From Naegleria gruberi (taxonomy: Eukaryota), in assembly GCA_000004985.1 (NCBI GenBank), contig GG738876.1: a stretch of 64,000 bases of DNA. One strand, given 5' to 3'. The translations under genes were made by a program, and so were the position numbers. Within the stretch, counting starts at the first letter, position 1. Each line of letters opens with the position of its first letter. Below are positions 12,217-53,953 of this stretch, piece after piece. The notes beneath the pieces are model-generated. The model searched no databases. It was not told where the DNA came from and saw nothing but the letters and a program-made list of their open reading frames with translations.

Positions 12217-15200
12217 ATGTCAAACTTCAACAGCAGTCCACTGTTGTTGGTATTGGCACTTGTATTCCTCACGCTTACATTTTCATCTTTATCATTCGTT
12301 AGTCCACAATGTCCTCATCAACAATCTGGTCTCATCAACTTTTCCACACTCTCCAACTACAACACTCAGTCAGCAAATATTGTCCTCACAGGTGGACAAC
12401 AAGTTCTCGTCGATGTTTCCACAACAAACGTTCTACGTTCCATCGTTGTTAGTTCGGGTACTAGTTTGATATTTAACGATGCCAATTTGAATTTAAATGT
12501 TGAATTTATTAGAGTGGAGAGTGGAGGAAGTTTAATCATGGGAAGTTTGTCGTGTCCAATTAATAATAAGATTGTTGTTACTTTCTATGGAGGTAGAACA
12601 ACTGATAATGTTATTGGAAGTGATCCAGCAGATTCTACTGAAACTGGTATGTTTCATTTTCTAATTTCATGTGTTAAATATTTCATTGTAAACTATTATT
12701 GAAAATGTTACAAAATAGGTTACAAGGGATTAGTGCTCATGACTGGCTCAACAGTTCAAATGCACGGTAAGGTCTACACTCCATCTTGGACAACCCTTTC
12801 CACAACTGTCACCAAGGGATCAGCAACTATTCAAGTTTCCGAATCAACTCAATGGAGAGTTGGTGATAAAATTGTAATCGCTTCAAGTGATTATTCTGAT
12901 TTGTACAATTGGGATGAAGATACTAGAGACTCGTTGCTTTGGAAACGTGGATTTGGTTTTAAGGATCAAACAGAAGAACGTACCATTAAGAGAATTATCA
13001 ATGCTTACACTTTTGAATTGAACTCACCATTGAATTACACTCACTTTAGTCAAGCACCTGACATGATGTGTGAAGTTGCAGTTTTGAATAGAAATATTGT
13101 GTTCACAGGTGATTCATCATCTGATACTAGTTTATTTGGTGGACATATTATGGTTCGTCCAACTGCTTCCAAATGTGAAATTAAAGGAATTGAAATTACC
13201 AAAATGGGATTGAGTGGAATTATGGGAAGATACCCAATCCACTTCCACGTTTGGGGAGAACACGCAAATTCCAATCCAGGAGCTTTCTATTTGAAAGATT
13301 CTTCCATTCACGACACTTATCAAAGATGTGTCGTTGTTCACGATACTAATGGATTGATTATTCAAGGAAATGTTTGTTACAACACTGTAGGCCATCAATA
13401 TTTCTTGGAAGATGGTCCAGAAATGTCCAATTCGTTCATTGGAAACTTAGGCTTAAAGGCAATTCCAGTCCCCAATGAAGATACCAAGCAATTAATCAAA
13501 TCTGAATCATCACCAGCAATTTTCTGGATTACCAATGCCAATAACACATTTATTGGAAACCATGCTGTTGGAGGTCGTTTTTCCTATTGGTTTACTCAAC
13601 CAGCCAATCCAACTGGTCTCTCAGCAACTAAATACGGTACCAATAACTATTATGTCAGGCCAAGGAATCAACCACTTGGTGTCTTTAGGGATAACGTTGC
13701 TCATGGTGCTGGTGAAAATGCACTCCATATTGATGACATGGTTAAGCCAGATACAACTACTGAACCGGAGGCTTTCGTTCCTTTGAGAGGTCCATATCCT
13801 GTTCTTGATTATTGGGTAGCTCCTGATTATGTGGATGCTATTTTTGAAAATTTTGTTGCTTGGAAGAATAGAGGATATGGTATTTGGTCTCGTTCCGCTC
13901 ACTTGGTTTTCAGAAATTGTAGATTGTACGATAATAGAATTGGTATGAATGCTCCACCTAATGGTCCTGTTTTATTTGAGAATTGTTATATTGTTGCTGA
14001 AACAGCAAATGTTGGCGAAGTCACCTCAATGAGAAGTCAAGTTGATAAGGGAGGAAGAACTAGACCTGGGCAATGGTCTTCTGAAGAAGTTTTGAAAGGT
14101 ATGGAACACTATGATAATGGTGGCCCTCAATTGGTTAGAAATGTTACCTTTGTTGGATTTAAGACTGATCAATACAGAGCTGCTGGTTCGCTTTCTGGGT
14201 TGAGTTACGCACCATTTAAGCATCAAACCAAGAACAAGTATGCTGATATGAAATTCATTGATAGTAATGTCTATTATCAATATGATTCTTTCTATGATTC
14301 ACACAAAGGAACAACTGTATTGGATGTTGATGGTTCATCAACTGGACTCAAACCAAATGGTTGGATTGTTAGCAATGATTCCCTCCTTATTCATCCAAAA
14401 TGTGAAGCCAAATCTGAATGGAATGGTTTTAAATGTCCTGTATTCCCTGAAAGTTATGGACAATTGGAAGTTTTGAATTTACAATTCTCTAGTACTTCAA
14501 ATACTGGTTCCAATGGTGTCAACTATCCTGATCTTTCTGATCCATCAAAGCGTGTCATGAGAATGAAAGTAATTGATTTAAAGAGAGGCTCTTCATCTTC
14601 AGTAATTGGTGCAACATCATCTGGTTCACCTAATGTATTGGCATTATTGTCAAATATTGTCATGAGAAATTTATATACTCTAAGATGGGCTTTCAACACT
14701 CCTACACCAAGTCAATTGCAACTTTCTCTCCGTTCCAATGCTCACAGTGATTGGGTCATTATTGCAATTCAATATCCAACTGGATCAACTTTTGAAGTTG
14801 TTCGTAAAACCTGGTCACAAAGTCCATTAACTTTGAGTTCAGTTGATTCTCTCTCTGCCTTGATGGATAATCCAGATTCCTACTATTACGAAAGTTACTC
14901 TCAACATTTGTACATTAAATTGGAAAATAGAGCCGGATTGGATGCCTGGGAAGAATGGCGTGGTTTCAGTGATTATGCATATGATGGTATTTCAATTACT
15001 ATTAAGGCAACATGTCCTAGCAACTCATGCTCGCCTACCAAATTTGATTATCCAACCAATTATGCCACTCTTTTGCAAAGAAACATTCGTGAAGAGAGAT
15101 ATGCCGGTGTTTTGCAAACTTGTCAACAAAACCTTGTGAAATCTGTCAATACCAATACTGGATCTGGTTATGTCTTTGCTTTTGCCAATCCTGTTAAGAG

Positions 15201-16347
15201 AACTGTCGATTTTAGTGTTTATCATGACTTGTCTTCAATTGTTACTAAGGTTGAAGTTGGAATTGGGTTGCCAGGTGCTGAAAAGAGAATTGTTCAAAGA
15301 CCTTACAAGATTAGTCCTTACACTGTTTCACGTTTCACTCTCCAATACACTTATGATGAATATGTTTCACTTTTGAAAGGTGAAGTTTTTGTGAAATTAT
15401 CAACAAGTCAAAATCCAAATGGTCATTTGAGAGCTCAAATTTATTGTAATAACGGTAAGAGAGATGGTCTTCCTAATTGTTCTCTTCCACCTACTATTTC
15501 AACTGCCAAACCGTGTGATGCTGTCCCTGGAGCTTTAAATATTTATTCTGAAAAGACTGATATTACTGGATGGCCTGATTGGGATATTTACTCATACACA
15601 GATAATATTGACACAAACCAGACCTATGTTAATTATTCATATACTGAATCTCCAATTTGTGGTGCTACTTCTATTCTATTTGGTACTCAAAGAGGAGCTA
15701 TTCAAATTTACCATCACACTGGAAGCCCAATGCCTTCTATTGACACTGCTCAATACAAGTACTTTGAATTCTTTGCCAAGGCCAAGAGTGGAGGACCAGT
15801 TCAATTGGGTATTGCCTTTTTCAAATACGATTCTGCTAAGGGTTCATCTGTTGCAATTGGAAATCTTGAACCAATCACCAACTCTTACATTCAACATTTC
15901 ATGATTGATGATCAAAGAGTAACTAGAGTGAGAATTCCACTTTCTGCCGTTCCTGGATTTACTGGCCAACAAAGCCTTCAAACAATCACCATTTACACAG
16001 TCCAACCATGGAACAGTGCTATTTTCAGAGAAGTTATTATTGATAATTTGAGATTTGTTAAGGAAACTACCGATGTCAAATCATTACAGGGAATTAATGG
16101 AACTAGTGATATTGTTTATTTCAATGAAAAGGTCTGTTCAGCTTCACCTGTCACTAATCCAGACTCTGATCCATTGGGATTAATTACTTTCAGTGCATTG
16201 CCAGCTCCAGATCCAATTCCACAATCTAGCACAACACCATCCAATAGTTCTGGAAATAATTCCAAGCTCTCTGTTGGTTCTATCTCTAGAGCTAATAACT
16301 TTATTGTTGGATTATTGGTTGCTTTGATTTGCTTCTTTCTAATATAA
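12217..16347 (+). CDS. Large secreted/GPI-anchored protein with a G8 domain and CEMIP/TMEM2-like beta-helix
   Basis: join(12217..12646, 12719..16347). The intron is 12647..12718 (72 nt, GTATGT..AATAG, phase 1). There is an N-terminal signal peptide. The G8-like segment starts YKGLVLMTGSTVQMHG. The GRYPIHFH motif with repeated N/G-rich beta-helix-like units resembles CEMIP/TMEM2/fibrocystin-type ectodomains. A C-terminal hydrophobic tail after a Ser-rich stretch suggests a GPI anchor. Confidence 0.7.
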
Positions 16348-26404: not shown

Positions 26405-26844
26405 ATTTAAAGGTAATATTATATTATTATTATTATTTGTTTGAATATATTGTGATCAAATAGTTGATCCTCTACAATCGGCAACAATATGTTCCGTTAA
26501 TGAAAAAATAGTAAGAGCTTTGTTAGTAGCACTACTCAAAGAGTGATTCGAGAGAGAGATTGTAATCAAAAATGTGATGAAACACAGCAAAATTTATGTA
26601 TTAGAGAAGCAACAGCTGTGGTGAATATTTTTTCTCTTGAAAGTCCGTACAAGATTTTGTCAAACTTTTTTAACTCTTCACTTGGTTCATAAAGGAACAG
26701 TGGAGAATTATCTTGTGGGCAGTTCGTAAGGCCCTAAGAATCTAGAAAATGTTAAATATCAGCAGCTATTCCTCATTACAAACCTAATCTTCACTTCTTA
26801 GATTTTCATATTTATTTAAGGCTAAATTTCAACATTAACAAGAT

Positions 26845-26916
26845 TCCCGTGTAGTCCAATGGCTAGGATACCTGGCTTTCACCCAGGAGGTCCGGGTTCA
26901 ATTCCCGGCATGGGAG
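26845..26916 (+). tRNA. tRNA-Glu (anticodon TTC)
   Basis: A 72-nt cloverleaf: 7-bp acceptor stem (one G-U), anticodon loop CTTTCAC, T-loop GGTTCAATTCC, and a T-run (ATTTTT) within 12 nt downstream. The plus-strand track ORF 26859..27107 overlapping it is spurious. Confidence 0.9.
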
Positions 26917-26943
26917 AATCATTTTTGGATATGAACTTTGCAT

Positions 26944-28138: not shown

Positions 28139-29749
28139 TTAGAATGTTAAATACTTATCAATTTTAGTGATCATTATTTTCATAGGATTGGAATTCTTGT
28201 ACGCGCCACATTGTTTAACAATGGAATTTATCAATTGTCTGAATCCATTCCTCTCCATTTCATACTTAAGCTTCTCCTCTCCAAGGGTTTTCTTTAGACT
28301 GTCCATGCTAGATTGGAAAATGGAAAATTTCACCTTTTTATCAGTCAATGAGTAACACTTGCATCTGGGATCAAACTCAACGACTTGACTTAAAATCTTT
28401 GTAAAAATTGTTCCATTATCACAAACTAGTTCCAAAGTTTTGCTAAATTCATCCTTTTCCAACATCTTTTCGAATAGCTCAGTTTTTTGAGAAAATATGA
28501 CAAGAAATTCTTCCAATAGCTCATTTTCTTTCTCAATCTGTAAGGATTTCGTAGTAAGAAAACAATCATAAATCTTTACAAATGATTCCAAGGCAATAGA
28601 TTTACAACTGGTAAGATTATTTTGCACATTTACAGATAAAAGCTCCATCATATATAATATATTGTGCTTTTTGAAAGGGGAGCCAACAGAATTGAGAAAT
28701 CTAATGATAAGCTTCAATAAATCTTCCAAACAATCATTCTTGTCAAAAAATTCCAAGTGTTTAAAATATACTGAAATCATATCTTTCACCACAATCCAAA
28801 TTAAAGTTGATTTTTGATAATTGTTTGGTATTGAATCGGCAAGTTTTTGAATTCTTTCAAAATCTCTCCTAACAAATATTGATTCAATGAAACCATATTC
28901 ACCAGCAAATAATCTCAGTAGGGTTTCTGATTTTTTAGTTTCGTCCAACCTGTCGTTATCAGTAATTGTATACCGTATAATCTTGTCAATTAAAGGGTCA
29001 TTCTTGTCCGCGAGTAGCTCAACAAATGCTAAAATCATACATAATCGTGTCATTCCAGTGGTTGTTAATTGAACATCCACAAACTTTCTATCAAATATTG
29101 CACGAATCAATTGAGAAATTCTTTGATTTTTCTCATTAGAATCTACACATCCATTCTTTGTAATATATTCGATTTGGTTTGGAAAATTAGATTTCAAAAC
29201 GTGATAACAATTCTCCATTATTCTTGAAGCATTCTTGGAATCTTGAGTCAAACTTGGAATTCTATCCAATCTGGAACGAAACCTTTCCAATTCAATTTCA
29301 GAATCATTTTCTCCATTGATCAAACTTTCAAAATAATGACACAGTCGAATATCTAGTTTAAAAAATCGAATAAATGTTTTTGCATCATTCATCATACTAA
29401 ATAATTTTCTAATTTTCTGCATATTTCCTTCCACCAAATCTAATCCATTATTCGAAACATTCCTCTCTGTTCCATAAATTACACAATATTCACAATTTTC
29501 TATAATCATGTGCCACATGTTTTTCATGACCAACGATAAATCATCATTCATCAAGATATCATAAAAAAGGTTCTTGTTGATTAACATGTAGTTTTGTAAT
29601 TCTTCAAATTGTTGGTAGAGTTCGATGGAATGGTAAAATCGATATGTGTTGGTTAGTGGTGTGGTCAATTCAAAGGGAGAGAGGTACCTAAAGATGCAAT
29701 AGCGTATTTCTGGAGGTAAATCCAGCAAGGTCATTGTATCTTCTTTCAT
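28139..29749 (-). CDS. F-box domain protein (536 aa)
   Basis: The N-terminal LLDLPPEIRYCIFRYLSPFEL is a canonical F-box (LPxEI...I..L). The rest is helical/leucine-rich without a second recognisable domain. Single exon. Confidence 0.7.
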   Translation of the reverse strand: MKEDTMTLLDLPPEIRYCIFRYLSPFELTTPLTNTYRFYHSIELYQQFEELQNYMLINKNLFYDILMNDDLSLVMKNMWHMIIENCEYCVIYGTERNVSNNGLDLVEGNMQKIRKLFSMMNDAKTFIRFFKLDIRLCHYFESLINGENDSEIELERFRSRLDRIPSLTQDSKNASRIMENCYHVLKSNFPNQIEYITKNGCVDSNEKNQRISQLIRAIFDRKFVDVQLTTTGMTRLCMILAFVELLADKNDPLIDKIIRYTITDNDRLDETKKSETLLRLFAGEYGFIESIFVRRDFERIQKLADSIPNNYQKSTLIWIVVKDMISVYFKHLEFFDKNDCLEDLLKLIIRFLNSVGSPFKKHNILYMMELLSVNVQNNLTSCKSIALESFVKIYDCFLTTKSLQIEKENELLEEFLVIFSQKTELFEKMLEKDEFSKTLELVCDNGTIFTKILSQVVEFDPRCKCYSLTDKKVKFSIFQSSMDSLKKTLGEEKLKYEMERNGFRQLINSIVKQCGAYKNSNPMKIMITKIDKYLTF

Positions 29750-29833
29750 TTTTTTTTATTCGAATCTGTGTGCATTTTCTAGTTTGACAAAGCTTGTTCG
29801 AAACTGTTAATAATATGGGACATTGGCAGTTTA

Positions 29834-32800
29834 TTACTGATTATATTCCAATAACTCATCTTGCAAAGTATATAATTGTTGAGCTAATTCTTCAATACTT
29901 GGTCTCTCCTTTGGATTGTGATCCCAACATCTTTTAATGAGCTTGGTCAACTCATACACAATAGCAAAATCAGCTGATTCATCCTCCATAAACATTTCAC
30001 ACCACTCCTCACACGAATCCAAAGATTCGAATGGTATAATTGGCCTTAAATTCTTTTCACAGACCATTCTAGATAACTTGTAAGGTGACATGTACTCTGG
30101 TTTAGTTTCCAATCCTAATTTTTCCAAAACTGAGGGAATTCCACTCATATACGGATCTCTCACTTCAAATAAGAGTTGCCACATGATTATTGACAGACTG
30201 TAAATATCGACAGCAGTTGCATTTTCTGGATCAATTGACTGAATATCATTCATTTCTGGACTCATGTAAAAAACTGATCCAATATTATTAGTAATTGAAT
30301 TTTTGGTTCCTTGTGATAATAATCTACTCAATCCAAAATCACAAACTTTACAATTTTCATTCGAATCTAATAGAATATTTTGTGGTTTCAAATCTCTATT
30401 TCAAAAAATTAAAAAATCTCAATTCAAAACTTGAACACACATACCTATGAATAATCTTTCTCGGTTTCAAATTGTGTAAATATTCCACACCATTCGAAAT
30501 GGAAATTAACATTTTAATCTTTTCCACAAGTGGAAGGGCCAATGTTTTGGATTCCAATTTTAAAATTACCTTATCCAAACTTTGTTCCAAACATTCCATG
30601 ACAATGTATCGTTTCGTTGGTGAGGTAGAAACTCCATAAAAATTGATAATATTTGGATGTCGGAGTTTGCTTAATAAAATTGCTTCCACTCTGAAATCTT
30701 CCTCTGAAATATTGACATTATTCAAATCAAAGACTTTGACAGCAACAATCATTCCAGACCACATGGTTTGATAGACACTCCCTACTCCGCCCTCACCCAA
30801 TCTTTTCATTGGTTTTTCCATTCCTAATTTTTGAAGTGGAATGATAAAATCATTTTCTTTGAGTTCCTCAGCAATTGGTTCCAAATGATACGAGTTGATA
30901 ATGAGTCTTTCATCCAATGCCAAGTCAACTTGAATAATCTTTCGTTGGGCTCTATTCTTCTTAATAAGTATGGAGCTGAAAAAGGTAATGGCCACAACGA
31001 GTGCAATGCAAAGGAATAGCACAGCAATGAAACTCACAATAAAGGCAATGATTTGTCCACCATCTTGACAATTATTTCCAGAATATCCAAAATTACATTC
31101 ACAATCTCCTGTAGTTTTGCAAACTCCTCTTCCATAACAAACATGTGGATCCTTTTCGCTGATTCCAGAACATGAACTGAGCTGGCACTCCTCTCCAATG
31201 AAACTTCCCTTACATGAGCACTTGTTTCTCGAGGTGCAAATTCCACGTTCGCTTCCTCCACACGAATCTCCAATTAGTTTGGAGAAACAAATTGCATTTT
31301 CACATTGGAAACCATAATAACCATCATTGCATCGACATGAATCAGGTTCACTACAGGTTCCATTATTATTGGAGCATACTTGAGAATTGTTTGCTGTAAT
31401 TCCATAACAAATTGGAATTTCACATTGACTGCCCGTGTATTTTTCTTGACATTGACACTTGTTTGGTGACACACAAGCACCATGGTTGTGACAAACTGAC
31501 AAGGTTTCATTATCAGGAATCCCAAAGCATACAGCCAAACATTCAGTTCTATTAGAATCTAATTGATAACCCTCATTACACATTGGAGTTAATCTCATAA
31601 TGGTATCGTACAATGCAAGGTAAATTGTGTTATCGCTAGTGACCTGAATATCTGAAAGGATGCCATCATGATTAACTGTTGTTCTAATTTTCCCTTTGGA
31701 AACAATTCTAAGCATATAATTAAGCGTGTCACCAATCACCAAGTCTCCATTACTAAGGAAGGAGACAGCTCTTGGGTAGGATAATTTAACTTGTAGAGGA
31801 TCAGTGCCAGAACTGAAACCTTCCTCTCCAGATCCAGCAATTGTAGAAATTTCATAATGATCATCTTTTTTAGTCAACTTTCTAATACGATGATTACTCG
31901 TGTCTGAAAAAACAATATCCTTAGTTATTGGATTTATGGCTAATCCAGTTGGTGATCTTAGATTTGCTAAAATACCAATGCTGCCATCACCTGAAAATCC
32001 AAACTTTCCAGTTCCAGCTATTGTTCGAATTATACCACTATTATCAACTAATCTTATTCGATTCGTATTCGATTCGGATATTACCAGTTCATTATTGGAT
32101 GTTTTAACCATTTTAGCTGGATAAACATTAGCATTATAAACACTCATTCCATCACCAATTCCTCCAACTGGGGTTAACAATAGAGTGTCCAACTTTCGTA
32201 TATTATTATTCTCTGTAAAGAAGAAACTTCCATCACTTACTATTGAGCAAACACCAAATGGAAATCCAATAGTATTGCCATCATCATTAGAAACCTTTGA
32301 ATAAATGAATCCAGTCCGTGAAACAAAACGAATCCTATTATTATACGAATCTGCAATTAAAAAACCATTGGAATGAACTGTTATCGATGTTGGATTGAAT
32401 AATTTGGCTGTTTTAGCCGTAATTCCATCTCCATTATATCCTGCCACAGTTGTCCCAGCCAAAGTACTAATTGTTCCTTCAGGAATCAAAAAACCTTGAG
32501 AATCTTGTTTCACATTTTGATATTTCACCTGGAGAATTCGATGATTTGATGAATCTATATGAAAAAAAATTGAACAAATTAGAATTGAATGAGACTTGAA
32601 TGAAATAACATACCAGCAATGTAAATATCATAAAAAAAGAATCCATTTCGTATAACTTCAATTCCAGAAGGTGAATTGAGCTCTGTTTGTCTTGGATTAT
32701 TTTCCACAATGGTAGAACCTGACGAACCCAATCCAACAAGTGTAGAAACTGTGGATGCATTGGTGTAGGGCACAATTCTAACTCTATGATTAAGGGTATC

Positions 32801-34796
32801 AGATATCAAGATTCCAATTCTTTTACTTGTAGCATACTGTGGAGAATTCAAATGAGTATTAAGGGGATGAAGAGAATCTCCATTGAATCCAGCAATTCCA
32901 GTTCCTACTATAGTGTTGATTATTCCATCTTTCGTAATTTTTCTAATTCTATGATTTCCAGTATCTGCTATCAATAGAAAATCATCAGATTTATCATAGT
33001 AAACAGAATAGGGTCTATTTAATTGAGCATGGATTGCTAAATTACCATCTCCTCCATAACCTGGCTCTCCTGTTCCAGCTACCAATTGAACCTGCAAAGT
33101 AGATGGATTATATTCTAATATTCTATGATTATCAGTGTCTGTTTGACATTTTTGAATTGCAAGGAACACATGTGAAAGACTTACCTGCAATGTATATTTG
33201 AGTAAAATCTGTAGAGCAGTGAATACCCATTGGATTATTAAGAATGATTCTGGAAGCATTCGTATTGGCGAATAGTCTGTCAGAAGTTATGGAACCTGCA
33301 TACATGCAATTGTTTCCGTTGGTATTTAACGAAAATTGTTGTAAATTAAACTTTAGTCCCACATTGCTTGCCACGAGGAGTTTTTCATTATTAAGAATTA
33401 GACCACTTGGGTTTTCTATTGTGGAAATTACATTTGTGGAGGCACCAGGAACAGTACATGATTCGTTCGAAATCTTATTAGAAAGTGAATATTTCACAAC
33501 TTGGTTTGTATCAATATTCAATACATTAATTTTCAATTTCTTGGTCAAATCATCTGCAATGTACAATAATCTACTTGTTTCATTGAGAGTCATTGCAGAA
33601 ATTGAATTAAATCTCATAAATTTTCCATCAATAAAATCAGAAAAAGATCCATATTCACAATCGTATAAACGAGTGAGCTCTCCACTCACCAAATCCACTC
33701 TACCAATCATACAAATGTCATTCACATAATTTCCAGAGAATAAATTAACATCAGTACTGACATACTGAGCCAAATTCACAAATGATGAAATAATTCCATC
33801 CTTAATTTTCAACAATTGACTGCCAAGTGAAACCAAAATCGTTCCATCACTTGTTACTGAAATTCCAGCTGCATCATTCAAGGAAGCATTAATTGCTAGT
33901 CCATTCACTTGATACTGAGTTCCTCCCTTAAATTCTCTTCCACTAATAACTGTCAACCAACCACTTTTCATTTCAATTTTAAAAGTGGAAAATGAATCAA
34001 TCACAAAAAGGTAATTCTCCATTCCAACAATTTTCTTTGGACTACTCAAAACTGTTTCATTGGCAAAACCATCTAATTTAGTTTGAGTTACTAAACCATC
34101 ACTACCAGCAAATGTTGAAATTATTCCATCCAAGCCAATTCTTCTAATTCTATAATCTGTATAATCACAAACAAAGACAATTCCATTTTGGTCAACCCAC
34201 AAGGAATTAATCGAAAGAAACCTAGCTTTCGTAGCTAATCCTCCATCCCCTCTCTCTAATGCTCCAAAATATCCTGCAAAAACACTGACTAATCCATCAT
34301 TGTCAATTTTAATAATTTGCTTGAATCCAGAAACATAAATCGTCTTGTTTCCACTTGTCAAATCTTCCAAAACATAAAAATAGGAAAGTGGGTAGTAGAG
34401 ATTGGTTGCTTTGGTATCGTTTTTCTTCTCCAGACTGTCTGCAGTATCACACCTTTCGAATACAGAATCCTCACATCCCATGAGTGTAATAATTTCTCCA
34501 GTTTTCTGATTAAATTGAATGATTTTTACTGCAGTAGCAATGTAGAGGATAGCAGAGTTGATGAGAGACTGTTGACCTGAGCTGAAACTGTAATTATATT
34601 TGGGGCCACCTGCAATTATTTCTTGTTTAAATTCTAATGGAGCTTCTTCCGAGTTTCGAATAATGAAGAGTAGACAAGAAAACAGTAGAAGCAGTACTGC
34701 CATCGATGGCAGCTTTGTGTGTTTCCTACAGAAGCCGGATAAACATTTGAGCATATTTTTTCTTTTAAGCAAAGATATTCTTCTGTTGTCGGACAT
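29834..34796 (-). CDS. Receptor protein kinase: signal peptide, NHL-repeat beta-propeller ectodomain, EGF/tenascin-like Cys-rich repeats, one TM helix and a TKL-type Ser/Thr kinase
   Basis: join(34796..33184, 33137..32613, 32553..30445, 30395..29834) on the minus strand, about 1600 aa. The introns are 33138..33183 (46 nt), 32554..32612 (59 nt) and 30396..30444 (49 nt). All are GTAAGT/GTATGT..AG with phase conserved. The ectodomain has many NHL-type units (..GxxGxxGf.GDGG.A..A.L..P.gv..D..GN..IaD..NHRIRki). It is followed by about 4 EGF-like Cys-rich modules, the TM segment IIAFIVSFIAVLFLCIALVVAITFF, and a kinase with GEGGVGSV, VAVK, HRDLKPQN (split by the last intron) and DFG. Confidence 0.8.
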
Positions 34797-34936: not shown

Positions 34937-36867
34937 TTAGTCGATATCCACATCTTCAAACTTTGGTTGAGCTGTGCTCGAAGTAGTTGGTCCACTGCCA
35001 CTAGAAGGGCCATAACCTCCTGGTGTTTGTTGTTGTTGAGCTTCTCCTTGATATAATTTGGTGATAATTGGAGCACATTTGTTTTCCAAATCCTTCTTTC
35101 TTCTTTCAATTTCGTCCTTTGAGGCCATGTTATTATTGTCAATCCAATTCATTGCTTCTTCACAGGCCTTCTTGATGACATTCTTGTCAGATTCTGAGAG
35201 TTTACCAGATAGATTTGGATCTTCTGTTGTTGATTTCATTTGGTAGGCGTAGGATTCGAATTGATTCTTGGAATCAATCTTTTCTCTCATTTCCTTATCT
35301 TCTTGTTCCATGTCTTTGGCCTTTCTCAACATTTCTTCAATTTCCTCCTTACTGAGACGACCCTTCTCATTGGTAATTGTAATGTTTTGAGTTTTACCAG
35401 ATGAAGTGTCCTTTGCTCCAACTTTCATGATACCATTAGAGTCAATTTCAAAGAAAACTTCAATCTTTGGTACGCCTCTTGGTGCAGGTGGAATTCCTTC
35501 CAAATTGAATTTACCCAACAAGTGATTATCCTTTGTTAATGTTCTCTCACCTTCAAAAACTTGAATAGTGACAGCTGTTTGATTATCAGAGTAGGTGGTA
35601 AACATTTCTGATTTCTTACATGGAATAGTTGTATTTCTCTCAATCAATTTAGCCATTACACCACCAGCAGTTTCAATACCCAAACTCAAAGGAGTCACAT
35701 CAATCAAAAGTACCTTAGTTTCCTTACCAGTCAAAACACCAGCTTGAACAGCAGCACCATAAGCAACAGCTTCATCAGGATTGATGGACTTACAGAGCTC
35801 CTTACCATTGAAGAATTCCTTAAGCATTTCTTGAACCTTTGGAATACGAGTTGAACCACCGACCAAGACAACATCATCAATTTGTGCCTTGTCCAAACCA
35901 GAATCTTGGAGAACCTTCTTAACTGGTTCGAAACAATTTCTGAACATATCCATATTCAATTGTTCGAATTTGGCTCTAGTCATTGGAATGTCCAAGTCAA
36001 TTCCATCAACAATTGAATCAACATTGATAGTTGAAGTGGAGGCAGATGACAAGTTTCTCTTTGTTCTTTCACAAGCAGTTCTCAATCTTCTCAAAGCTCT
36101 TGGATTATCATGAACGTCTCTTCTATACTTTCTCTTGAATTCTGTACAGCAGTATTCCACCATTCTTGAATCGAAATCTTCACCACCCAAGTGAGTATCA
36201 CCAGCAGTAGCTTTCACCTCAAAAACACCATCTTCAATATTTAGGATTGATACATCAAATGTACCACCACCCAAATCGAAAATCAAAACATACTTCTCAT
36301 CCTTCTTATTTAACCCATAGGCAATTGCAGCAGCTGTTGGTTCATTGATAATTCTCAAAACTTCTAGACCTGCAATTTGACCTGCATCCTTAGTGGCTTG
36401 TCTTTGAGAATCGTTAAAGTAAGCTGGAACAGTGACAACTGCCTTTTGGACCTTCTTTCCAACGTATTGTTCTGCAATATCTTTCATTTTGGTCAAGACC
36501 ATGGATGAGATTTGTTCTGGTGTGAAAATATGAGATTCTCCCTTGTACTCAACTGAATATATGGTTTATCATCTCCTTTGGTAATTACTTTGAAAGGCCA
36601 ATGCTTAATATCATTCTGAACACTTGTATCACTGAATTTTCTACCAATCAGACGTTTAGCATCAAACACTGTATTATGAGGATTCATTGCAACTTGATTT
36701 TTGGCAGCATCACCAATCAAACGTTCATCATCGGTGAATGCAACATAGGAGGGTGTAGTTCTATTACCTTGATCATTGGGTATAATCTCTACATTATCTC
36801 CCATATAAACACCAACACATGAATAAGTAGTACCCAAGTCAATTCCAATTGCTCCGTCAAATGACAT
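34937..36867 (-). CDS. Hsp70 family chaperone (cytosolic type) with an apparent 1-bp frameshift near 36553
   Basis: ORFs 36493..36867 ([20 protein letters not shown]...) and 34937..36502 (...[12 protein letters not shown]...) together cover a complete Hsp70. The frame breaks inside the conserved KPYIQ|VEYKGE segment. The sequence reads ATTCAGTTGAGTAC where ATTCAGGTTGAGTAC is expected, so one base is missing at plus position ~36553. The C-terminus ends FEDVDID (EEVD-like). This is either a pseudogenised paralogue or a sequence error. Confidence 0.7.
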
Positions 36868-53879: not shown

Positions 53880-53953
53880 TACGCCGTAAGGGAGTCGAAC
53901 CCTTGACCTTCAGCGTGTAAAGCTGACGATCTAACCAACTGATCTAACGGCGC
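53880..53953 (-). tRNA. tRNA-Val (anticodon TAC)
   Basis: The reverse complement folds as a 74-nt cloverleaf: acceptor GCGCCGT/ACGGCGT (1 G-U), D-loop AGTTGGTTAG, anticodon stem TCAGC/GCTGA with loop TTTACAC, T-arm AAGGG-TTCGACT-CCCTT. There is a T-run immediately 3' on the minus strand. Confidence 0.85.

What the first reader, a model, noticed from the sequence alone, without database searches (positions are those of the whole stretch)
29834..34796. About 1600-aa receptor kinase with an NHL-repeat beta-propeller ectodomain fused to EGF-like modules and a TKL kinase
Four exons on the minus strand encode a signal peptide, a very long run of NHL-type repeats (enough for two or more six-bladed propellers), four Cys-rich EGF/tenascin-like modules, one TM helix, and an intact Ser/Thr kinase (GxGxxG, VAVK, HRDLKPQN, DFG, SPE). 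NHL propellers are usually intracellular (TRIM-NHL) or in bacterial surface proteins. Using one as the sensing ectodomain of a eukaryotic receptor kinase is unusual. It suggests a lineage-specific ligand or cell-cell recognition receptor. The HRD motif is split by an intron exactly at R|D.
Basis: partly seen in the sequence, partly recalled or inferred. Interest (0 to 1): 0.6.

Follow-up and report, generated by a model that had tools for sequence, protein, structure and literature searches.

The report
Naegleria NHL-propeller receptor kinase gene
This is a real Naegleria gruberi gene for a cell-surface receptor kinase with an outer part of about three NHL beta-propellers on a short EGF stalk; it belongs to a small, undescribed Naegleria family, and the public gene model for it is wrong.

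Summary
On the minus strand of 29834-34796, four exons and three short GT..AG introns (46, 59 and 49 nt) encode a 1602-aa protein (1571 aa if translation starts at M32). It has a signal-peptide-like segment, about 18 NHL blades (probably three six-bladed propellers), a 2-Cys cap with four 6-Cys teneurin-type EGF modules, one TM helix, and a complete TKL-like Ser/Thr kinase with every catalytic motif intact.

The receptor-kinase architecture does not depend on splicing. Exon 3 alone is one ORF that runs from NHL blades through the EGF modules and the TM helix into the kinase N-lobe.

The window is Naegleria gruberi. The public model (XP_002675788) is a chimera. It drops one NHL blade, skips the kinase C-lobe exon, and runs into the next gene.

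At least three more N. gruberi genes, one N. lovaniensis gene and one metagenome contig share the architecture, so this is a small lineage-specific family. I found no paper describing it.

"Unusual" is overstated. Bacterial PknD couples an NHL propeller to a kinase, and teneurins combine the same EGF and NHL subtypes outside the cell.

Ligand and function are unknown. The ligand-driven activation mechanism is inferred. Interest is moderate.

The parts
29834..34796 (-). Whole gene from the first ATG to the stop codon; 4 exons; 1602 aa
   Evidence: Identical over shared exons to N. gruberi XP_002675788.
33185..34796 (-). Exon 1 (aa 1-537 plus 1 nt): N-terminal extension, signal-peptide-like segment, propeller 1 and the start of propeller 2
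   Evidence: Bacterial NHL proteins match with E down to 1.7e-58. AlphaFold model is all-beta, pLDDT 63; Foldseek top matches are teneurin-like protein, teneurin-2 and SOQ1, with NHLRC2 and PknD further down.
34644..34703 (-). Probable signal peptide if translation starts at M32 (MAVLLLLFSCLLFIIRNSEE)
   Evidence: Hydropathy peak at aa 28-50. Paralogs have their hydrophobic segment at the extreme N-terminus. No SignalP run; inference.
33139..33184 (-). Intron 1: 46 nt, GTAAGT..CAG, phase 1, inside the Asp codon of an 'IA|D' NHL motif
   Evidence: The public model instead uses an acceptor 174 nt further on and deletes one blade. Paralog P0387 keeps that blade.
32614..33138 (-). Exon 2: 525 nt, aa 538-712, about three canonical NHL blades; symmetric phase 1-1 exon
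32555..32613 (-). Intron 2: 59 nt, GTATGT..TAG, phase 1, at the same 'IA|D' position of another blade
30445..32554 (-). Exon 3 (aa 713-1415): end of propeller 2, propeller 3, EGF modules, TM helix and kinase N-lobe through 'HR', all in one ORF
31581..32402 (-). Propeller 3 (aa 764-1037): six NHL blades
   Evidence: Repeat HMM. AlphaFold model pLDDT about 90 over most of this part. Foldseek: 9ifo E 1.9e-19; TM 0.80 to the six-bladed Pizza6.
31056..31580 (-). 2-Cys cap plus four 6-Cys teneurin/tenascin-type EGF modules (aa 1038-1212)
   Evidence: Pfam EGF_2 and EGF_Teneurin above their cut-offs; EGF_TEN matched below its cut-off. Cys positions.
30963..31052 (-). Single transmembrane helix (aa 1214-1243), followed by KKNRAQRK
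   Evidence: Hydropathy 3.26. Same position in the paralogs.
29870..30809 (-). Protein kinase domain (aa 1295-1591, spans intron 3): GEGGVGSV, VAVK, HRDLKPQN, DFG, SPE
   Evidence: Pfam Pkinase 5.6e-48, profile 4-262/263. Best solved relatives are CTR1, TAK1, Abl and B-Raf. Motif coordinates.
30396..30444 (-). Intron 3: 49 nt, GTATGT..TAG, phase 2, inside the Arg codon of HRD
   Evidence: The junction is validated by colinear paralogs and by the intron-less homologue P0121.
29834..30395 (-). Exon 4: kinase C-lobe and stop codon; missing from the public model

Best explanation
The gene encodes a type I single-pass receptor Ser/Thr kinase of the TKL group.

After signal-peptide cleavage, the extracellular part consists of about 18 NHL blades, most likely three six-bladed beta-propellers, of the bacterial/teneurin NHL subtype. 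These propellers form the binding surface. A rigid, disulfide-rich stalk of four teneurin-type EGF modules holds them away from the membrane.

One TM helix and a juxtamembrane segment of about 50 aa connect to a catalytically competent kinase.

The most likely mechanism is inferred, not shown. Binding of an extracellular ligand or surface to the propellers clusters or re-orients receptor molecules. The kinase domains then trans-phosphorylate their Ser/Thr-rich activation segments and signal inward.

The gene is one member of a small Naegleria-specific family built by joining an NHL+EGF surface module to a TKL kinase.
For: Shown:
- A continuous ORF (exon 3) links NHL blades, EGF modules, TM helix and kinase N-lobe.
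- The full-length Pkinase match exists only with exon 4 included. The public model, which lacks exon 4, shows only a truncated kinase match (residues 1201-1334 of P0001).
- All catalytic motifs are intact.
- The kinase's nearest solved relatives are the TKL kinases CTR1 and TAK1. Named database hits are TKL/CTR1-DRK kinases.
- The NHL and teneurin-NHL Pfam families are above threshold.
- Both modelled ectodomain pieces match NHL propellers in the PDB.
- There are exactly two hydrophobic segments, 13 N-glycosylation sequons outside and 2 inside, and 26 paired-number Cys in the stalk.
- Three N. gruberi paralogs have the same order, SP-NHL-EGF-TM-kinase; two of them were aligned and are colinear end to end, at 45% and 36% identity. 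One N. lovaniensis protein (NHL-EGF-TM-kinase, no N-terminal hydrophobic segment detected) and metagenome contig L001 (NHL-EGF-TM, then kinase) share the order.

Inferred:
- Signal-peptide cleavage, outside-in orientation, and activation by ligand-induced oligomerisation. These follow from general knowledge of single-pass receptor kinases.
Against: - No transcript evidence was available for any junction or for the 5' end.
- No ligand, localisation or activity data exist.
- The N-terminal 490 aa are modelled at only pLDDT 63, so the count of three propellers is an estimate.
- Propeller 2 spans two introns and could not be modelled as a unit.
- The start codon is ambiguous (M1, M15 or M32).
- No SignalP or TMHMM run was possible; topology rests on hydropathy and on the paralogs.
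Confidence: 0.75

Rival explanations
1. It is mainly a contact or adhesion receptor. The NHL propellers would bind the same or related molecules on another cell or on prey, as the teneurin NHL domain is reported to do. The kinase would then report contact rather than a soluble ligand.
For: The EGF and NHL modules are of the teneurin subtypes (Pfam PF25021 and PF23106 above their cut-offs; PF25024 matched below its cut-off). The top PDB matches are a bacterial teneurin-like protein and teneurins. Naegleria also has many large NHL/EGF surface proteins without a kinase.
Against: There is no YD shell, FN-plug or toxin domain. All stalk Cys are in even 6-Cys modules, so nothing suggests the covalent dimerisation that teneurins achieve through odd Cys. 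There is no binding evidence at all. This is a variant of the best explanation rather than an alternative to it.
Confidence: 0.2
2. The ORFs belong to separate genes (an NHL/EGF surface protein and a separate kinase), and the receptor kinase is an artefact of joining them.
For: No RNA evidence was available. The public annotation joins the exons differently.
Against: Exon 3 is one uninterrupted 710-codon ORF that contains NHL blades, EGF modules, the TM helix and the kinase N-lobe. Exon 4 completes the kinase exactly (Pfam 4-262/263) and is colinear with the aligned paralogs and with the intron-less P0121.
Confidence: 0.02
3. The kinase is a non-catalytic scaffold (pseudokinase), and the protein acts as a co-receptor or decoy.
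For: There is an unusual insert of about 60 aa in the C-lobe, and SPE replaces APE.
Against: The Gly loop, the VAVK Lys, the alphaC Glu, HRDLKPQN, DFG, the subdomain-IX Asp and the subdomain-XI Arg are all present and conserved in the paralogs.
Confidence: 0.05
4. The NHL propellers are enzymes (lactonase/lyase-like, as in SMP-30, PAL or Vgb) displayed on the surface, not binding modules.
For: Weak sub-threshold Pfam hits to SGL and Arylesterase (E 0.01-0.03). Vgb lyase appears among the fold matches. Source databases label many bacterial homologues 'sugar lactone lactonase YvrE'.
Against: Those hits are below the curated cut-offs and reflect the shared six-bladed fold. Active-site metal ligands were not examined. 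Tandem propellers on an EGF stalk in front of a kinase fit a sensor better.
Confidence: 0.04

Closest known systems
Naegleria paralogs: N. gruberi XP_002672197 (1508 aa), XP_002677980 (1555 aa), XP_002673894 (2807 aa); N. lovaniensis XP_044553469 (971 aa)
   Same: Same order, NHL - teneurin-type EGF - TM - TKL kinase, with an N-terminal hydrophobic segment in the three N. gruberi paralogs. XP_002672197 and XP_002677980 were aligned and are 45% and 36% identical end to end; both show the same C-lobe insert with the RP-IPF...C..WC motif.
   Different: Different numbers of NHL blades and EGF modules. All are annotated only as 'predicted protein' or 'serine/threonine protein kinase'. None has been studied.
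Mycobacterium tuberculosis PknD (sensor domain PDB 1RWL) and bacterial relatives (P0100, P0107)
   Same: An extracellular six-bladed NHL propeller is coupled through one TM helix to a Ser/Thr kinase. 1RWL and its Pizza6 derivatives are structural matches.
   Different: The kinase is N-terminal and the propeller C-terminal. There is a single propeller and no EGF stalk. The kinase is a bacterial Hanks-type kinase rather than a TKL. The resemblance is probably convergent.
Teneurins and bacterial teneurin-like proteins (PDB 6FB3, 9IFO; PMC13018210, PMC5851990)
   Same: The same Pfam subtypes of NHL (PF25021) and EGF (PF23106; PF25024 matched below its cut-off). EGF repeats lie near the membrane and the propeller lies distal. 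These are the best sequence and fold matches in the PDB.
   Different: Teneurins are type II proteins with a TTR domain, FN-plug, YD shell and Tox-GHH, one propeller and no kinase. None of those extra domains is detected here.
Other receptor kinases with propeller ectodomains: plant CRINKLY4/ACR4 and animal ROS1/Sevenless (literature)
   Same: Propeller(s), with a Cys-rich module in CRINKLY4, plus a single TM helix and a cytoplasmic kinase.
   Different: The propellers belong to unrelated families (WD40 type in CRINKLY4; YWTD type in ROS1, from my own knowledge). From my own knowledge, the kinases are RLK/Pelle or tyrosine kinases.
TKL kinases CTR1, TAK1 and Raf
   Same: Closest solved kinase domains (E 4e-29 to 1e-21). 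HRDLKxxN and G[ST]xx[YW]M[AS]PE-type motifs.
   Different: Those kinases are cytoplasmic and have no ectodomain or TM helix.

Membership tests
Eukaryotic protein kinase, TKL group | Complete kinase domain with catalytic Lys, HRD Asp, DFG Asp and APE-type Glu | tested here: met
   Pfam Pkinase 164 bits, profile 4-262/263. Motifs at aa 1299-1306, 1316-1319, 1415-1422, 1435-1437 and 1461-1463.
Eukaryotic protein kinase, TKL group | Nearest relatives are TKL kinases; Ser/Thr-type catalytic loop (HRDLKxxN), not the tyrosine-kinase type (HRDLAARN) | tested here: met
   Best PDB hits are CTR1 and TAK1. Named hits are TKL/CTR1-DRK kinases. The catalytic loop reads HRDLKPQN. No formal kinome phylogeny was made.
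NHL-repeat six-bladed beta-propeller | NHL repeat profile above the curated cut-off | tested here: met
   PF01436 92.6 bits (cut-off 20). PF25021 96.2 bits (cut-off 27.1), 5 stretches.
NHL-repeat six-bladed beta-propeller | Six four-stranded blades closing into a propeller | tested here: met
   Met for aa 764-1037: model pLDDT about 90, TM 0.80 to six-bladed Pizza6, 0.66-0.68 to the NHLRC2 and SOQ1 NHL domains. Only moderately supported for aa 55-537 (pLDDT 63). Propeller 2 was not modelled.
Type I single-pass receptor kinase | N-terminal signal peptide, one TM helix, C-terminal cytoplasmic kinase | tested here: met
   Two hydrophobic segments only; basic residues follow the TM helix; sequons and Cys are concentrated N-terminal of the TM helix. 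Same layout in three paralogs. No dedicated predictor was run.
Teneurin / teneurin-like protein | FN-plug, YD-repeat shell and C-terminal toxin domain | tested here: not met
   No FN-plug, YD-shell or toxin family appears among the Pfam hits at E <= 0.1.
Teneurin / teneurin-like protein | Type II topology (N-terminus inside) | tested here: not met
   The ectodomain is N-terminal of the TM helix and the kinase is C-terminal.
PknD-type bacterial receptor kinase | N-terminal Hanks kinase, TM helix, C-terminal NHL sensor | tested here: not met
   The domain order is reversed here. Bacterial examples P0100 and P0107 have the kinase at residues 14-216 and 57-200 and the NHL repeats after the TM helix.
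Animal receptor tyrosine kinases | TK-group catalytic loop HRDL(A/R)A(A/R)N | tested here: not met
   The loop reads HRDLKPQN.
Plant RLK/Pelle receptor kinases | Kinase domain clustering within the RLK/Pelle (IRAK) clade | not tested
   A LysM receptor kinase is a weaker PDB hit (3.8e-22) than CTR1 or TAK1. No phylogeny was made.

The most novel reading that the evidence does not exclude
Naegleria (or an ancestor within Heterolobosea) captured a bacterial-type NHL surface module, joined it to teneurin-type EGF repeats and then to a TKL kinase. This would be a second, independent eukaryotic re-use of the NHL+EGF combination that also gave rise to teneurins. The resulting family would serve self/non-self, mating or prey recognition in a free-living amoeba.
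Probability: 0.15. Interest if true: 0.6.

Novelty: new variant of a known kind. Interest (0 to 1): 0.35.

Why it matters
The finding shows that a discoban amoeba, far from animals and plants, independently built receptor kinases from an NHL propeller sensor and an EGF stalk. Bacteria (PknD) and animals (teneurins) use the same parts separately.

It adds a defined, testable family to the poorly known surface-receptor repertoire of Naegleria, the genus that includes the pathogen N. fowleri.

It also corrects a public gene model. That model hides the complete kinase and fuses two genes, which would mislead kinome counts and domain-architecture surveys.

The value is mainly comparative and for annotation. 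It does not open a long-standing question.

Tried and rejected
I used the exon 3 ORF instead.
- The AFDB Foldseek library was not available.
- Four literature searches for Naegleria with NHL, kinome or receptor-kinase terms found nothing relevant. Absence from this library is not proof that the family is undescribed.
- tblastn of the protein against the window found no second copy, so there is no tandem cluster here.
- The neighbouring genes (HSP70, F-box-like ORF, myotubularin, ABC transporter, CEMIP-like protein, actin-family protein, carboxylesterase) show no functional link.
- Teneurin membership, PknD membership and tyrosine-kinase membership were each considered and rejected on tested features.
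- An enzymatic reading of the propellers was considered and given low weight.
- I did not find transcript-derived proteins for this gene in the protein collection, so the junctions could not be checked against RNA.
Full report
**What is there**

The window is AT-rich (about 33-36% G+C) and comes from a eukaryote. On the minus strand between 34796 and 29834, four long ORFs follow one another. Reading the sequence and joining them at canonical sites gives these exons: 34796-33185, 33138-32614, 32554-30445 and 30395-29834. The introns are 46, 59 and 49 nt (GTAAGT..CAG, GTATGT..TAG, GTATGT..TAG). Two of the three introns are more AT-rich than the coding sequence (22% against 35% G+C; intron 1 is 35%). 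The CDS is 4809 nt, in frame, and encodes 1602 aa.

**Identity and the public model**

A protein search returns one near-identical entry, "predicted protein [Naegleria gruberi]" (XP_002675788, NAEGRDRAFT_50059, 1842 aa). Its sequence is identical to my model over the shared exons but differs in three places:

- It starts at M32.
- It uses a later acceptor for intron 1 and so deletes exactly one 58-aa NHL blade.
- After "KIIHR" it jumps over exon 4 into the next gene (ORF 28139-29749, "...YLSPFELTT..."), so it lacks the kinase C-lobe and carries about 500 unrelated residues.

With exon 4 included, the Pfam kinase match is full length (profile 4-262 of 263, E 5.6e-48). In the public model, my kinase query matches only residues 1201-1334.

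**Support for the junctions**

No RNA evidence could be reached, so I used comparison.

- Two N. gruberi paralogs, XP_002672197 (45% identity) and XP_002677980 (36%), align end to end with my model, including all of exon 4.
- A metagenome homologue with 55% identity (P0121) encodes the whole kinase, including HRDLKPGN, in a single ORF.
- The blade that the public model removes is a canonical NHL repeat (73.9 bits against my repeat profile) with no stop in 58 codons. XP_002677980 retains it.

Most importantly, the receptor-kinase architecture does not depend on any splice. Exon 3 is one ORF that contains NHL blades, all four EGF modules, the TM helix and the kinase N-lobe.

**Domains**

Pfam finds these families above their curated cut-offs:

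- NHL (PF01436, 6.6e-27)
- Teneurin NHL (PF25021, 2.6e-27, five stretches)
- EGF_2
- Teneurin-like EGF
- Pkinase

A repeat profile built from the clear copies finds eight strong blades between aa 519 and 1025 plus weaker ones.

The N-terminal 490 aa, which look less regular, still match bacterial NHL proteins with E down to 1.7e-58.

AlphaFold models were made from alignments A1 and A2. For aa 714-1215 the model has pLDDT 79, and about 90 over most of the propeller. It shows a propeller followed by four small EGF-like units. For aa 48-537 the model is all-beta with four-stranded blades at pLDDT 63.

Foldseek against the PDB puts both models on NHL propellers.

Counting strands in the two models and the three canonical blades of exon 2 gives about 18 blades. 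That suggests three six-bladed propellers at roughly aa 55-392, 393-763 and 764-1037. The third is well supported, the first moderately, and the second is inferred from sequence only.

The stalk (aa 1038-1212) has 26 Cys: a 2-Cys cap and four 6-Cys modules with tenascin/teneurin spacing.

Hydropathy shows only two hydrophobic segments, aa 28-50 and aa 1214-1243. The second is followed by KKNRAQRK. There are 13 N-glycosylation sequons before the TM helix and 2 after it.

**Kinase**

All catalytic elements are present:

- GEGGVGSV
- VAVK
- the alphaC Glu
- HRDLKPQN
- DFG
- SPE
- the subdomain-IX Asp
- the subdomain-XI Arg

The closest solved kinases are CTR1 and TAK1, followed by Abl and B-Raf. 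Named database relatives are TKL/CTR1-DRK kinases of plants, oomycetes and Dictyostelium-like annotations. The catalytic loop is of the Ser/Thr type. The kinase is therefore an apparently active TKL-like kinase. Dual specificity cannot be judged from sequence.

**Family and distribution**

An exhaustive profile-free search with exon 3 was dominated by giant EGF- or NHL-rich proteins. It also recovered colinear relatives. Pfam scans, local scans and cluster look-ups show the same order, signal peptide - NHL - EGF - TM - kinase, in three further N. gruberi genes:

- XP_002672197 (1508 aa)
- XP_002677980 (1555 aa)
- XP_002673894 (2807 aa, 16 detected NHL repeats)

N. lovaniensis XP_044553469 shows NHL - EGF - TM - kinase, but its public model has no N-terminal hydrophobic segment.

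An EGF-only kinase (XP_002681046) and a Willaertia magna kinase with a different ectodomain are the next relatives.

A JGI metagenome contig (L001) encodes NHL blades, four EGF modules and a TM helix directly upstream of the 55%-identical kinase.

No paralog lies in this window, and the neighbouring genes are unrelated.

The only other kinase+NHL proteins collected are bacterial and have the opposite order: kinase first, NHL last.

**How it most likely works**

Shown: a secretory-type N-terminus, a large propeller ectodomain on an EGF stalk, one TM helix, and an intact cytoplasmic kinase.

Inferred from general knowledge of single-pass receptor kinases: binding of a ligand or surface to the propellers changes the receptor's oligomeric state, and the kinase domains then phosphorylate each other's activation segments and downstream targets.

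The ligand is unknown. A contact-sensing role like that of the teneurin NHL domain is a reasonable variant. An enzymatic role for the propellers or a pseudokinase role has little support.

**Comparison with what is known**

The protein works like PknD (NHL sensor plus Ser/Thr kinase) and looks like the membrane-proximal part of a teneurin (the same EGF and NHL subtypes). It is a member of neither. The domain order and kinase class differ from PknD. The FN-plug, YD shell, toxin domain and type II topology of teneurins are absent.

Propeller-plus-Cys-rich receptor kinases also exist in plants (CRINKLY4) and animals (ROS1), but with unrelated propellers.

I found no paper that mentions Naegleria together with NHL repeats or that describes these kinases.

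**Verdict**

The interpretation as a receptor kinase is well supported. The claim of unusualness is only partly supported, because NHL sensors on kinases and extracellular NHL+EGF combinations are both known and the gene has several paralogs.

This is a new variant of a known kind: a Naegleria-specific family of NHL/EGF receptor TKL kinases. Interest is moderate (0.35).

Noticed in passing
window 28139-34796 (minus strand): The public N. gruberi model XP_002675788 (NAEGRDRAFT_50059, 1842 aa) is a chimera. It omits the kinase C-lobe exon (29834-30395), deletes one NHL blade through a longer intron 1, and runs into the downstream ORF 28139-29749. Only 84 nt separate the stop codon from that ORF's ATG.
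   Followed up: yes
window about 36540-36550 (minus strand), HSP70 gene 34937-36867: The HSP70 gene just upstream is split into two overlapping ORFs by an apparent 1-nt deletion. The sequence reads 'cag ttg ag' where 'cag gtt gag' (..KPYIQ VEYKGE..) is expected, and there is no room for an intron. It could be an assembly error, a pseudogene or an artefactual intron in annotations.
   Followed up: partly
window 33139-33184 and 32555-32613: Introns 1 and 2 sit at the same place and phase (phase 1, in the Asp codon of the 'IA|D' NHL motif) of two different blades. Exon 2 is a symmetric 525-nt exon encoding about three blades. The public model's alternative acceptor is at the same motif one blade later. 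This suggests the intron position was duplicated along with the repeats, and that skipping would stay in frame.
   Followed up: partly
window 28139-29749 (minus strand): The downstream 536-aa ORF starts with an F-box-like motif (LLDLPPEIRYCIFRYLSPFEL) but has no Pfam match at E <= 0.01.
   Followed up: partly
P0384 (XP_002672197), aligned to model aa 538-566 and 700-737: The public model of this paralog lacks segments at the same repeat positions where this gene has introns. That model may also have lost parts of NHL blades through mis-predicted splicing.
   Followed up: no
L001:1360-1375 (JGI metagenome 3300002220 contig): In the environmental relative, the NHL-EGF-TM ORF ends with a stop 4 nt before the kinase ORF begins. 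There is probably a short intron or a frameshift in the juxtamembrane region. The kinase itself has no intron at the HRD site.
   Followed up: partly
model aa about 1498-1560 (window about 29960-30150): A C-lobe insert with a conserved 'RP-I-PF ... C..WC' motif is shared by the aligned Naegleria paralogs, by P0121 and P0123, and in weaker form by the Willaertia kinase. It may be a family signature of heterolobosean receptor kinases.
   Followed up: no
window 26844-26917 (+) and 53880-53953 (-): tRNA-Glu(TTC) and tRNA-Val(TAC) genes lie between the protein-coding genes.
   Followed up: no
window 12733-16347 (+): A 1204-aa ORF matches the CEMIP beta-helix and CEMIP domain X families (E 1.2e-63), which from memory are best known from the animal hyaluronan-binding protein CEMIP.
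   Followed up: no
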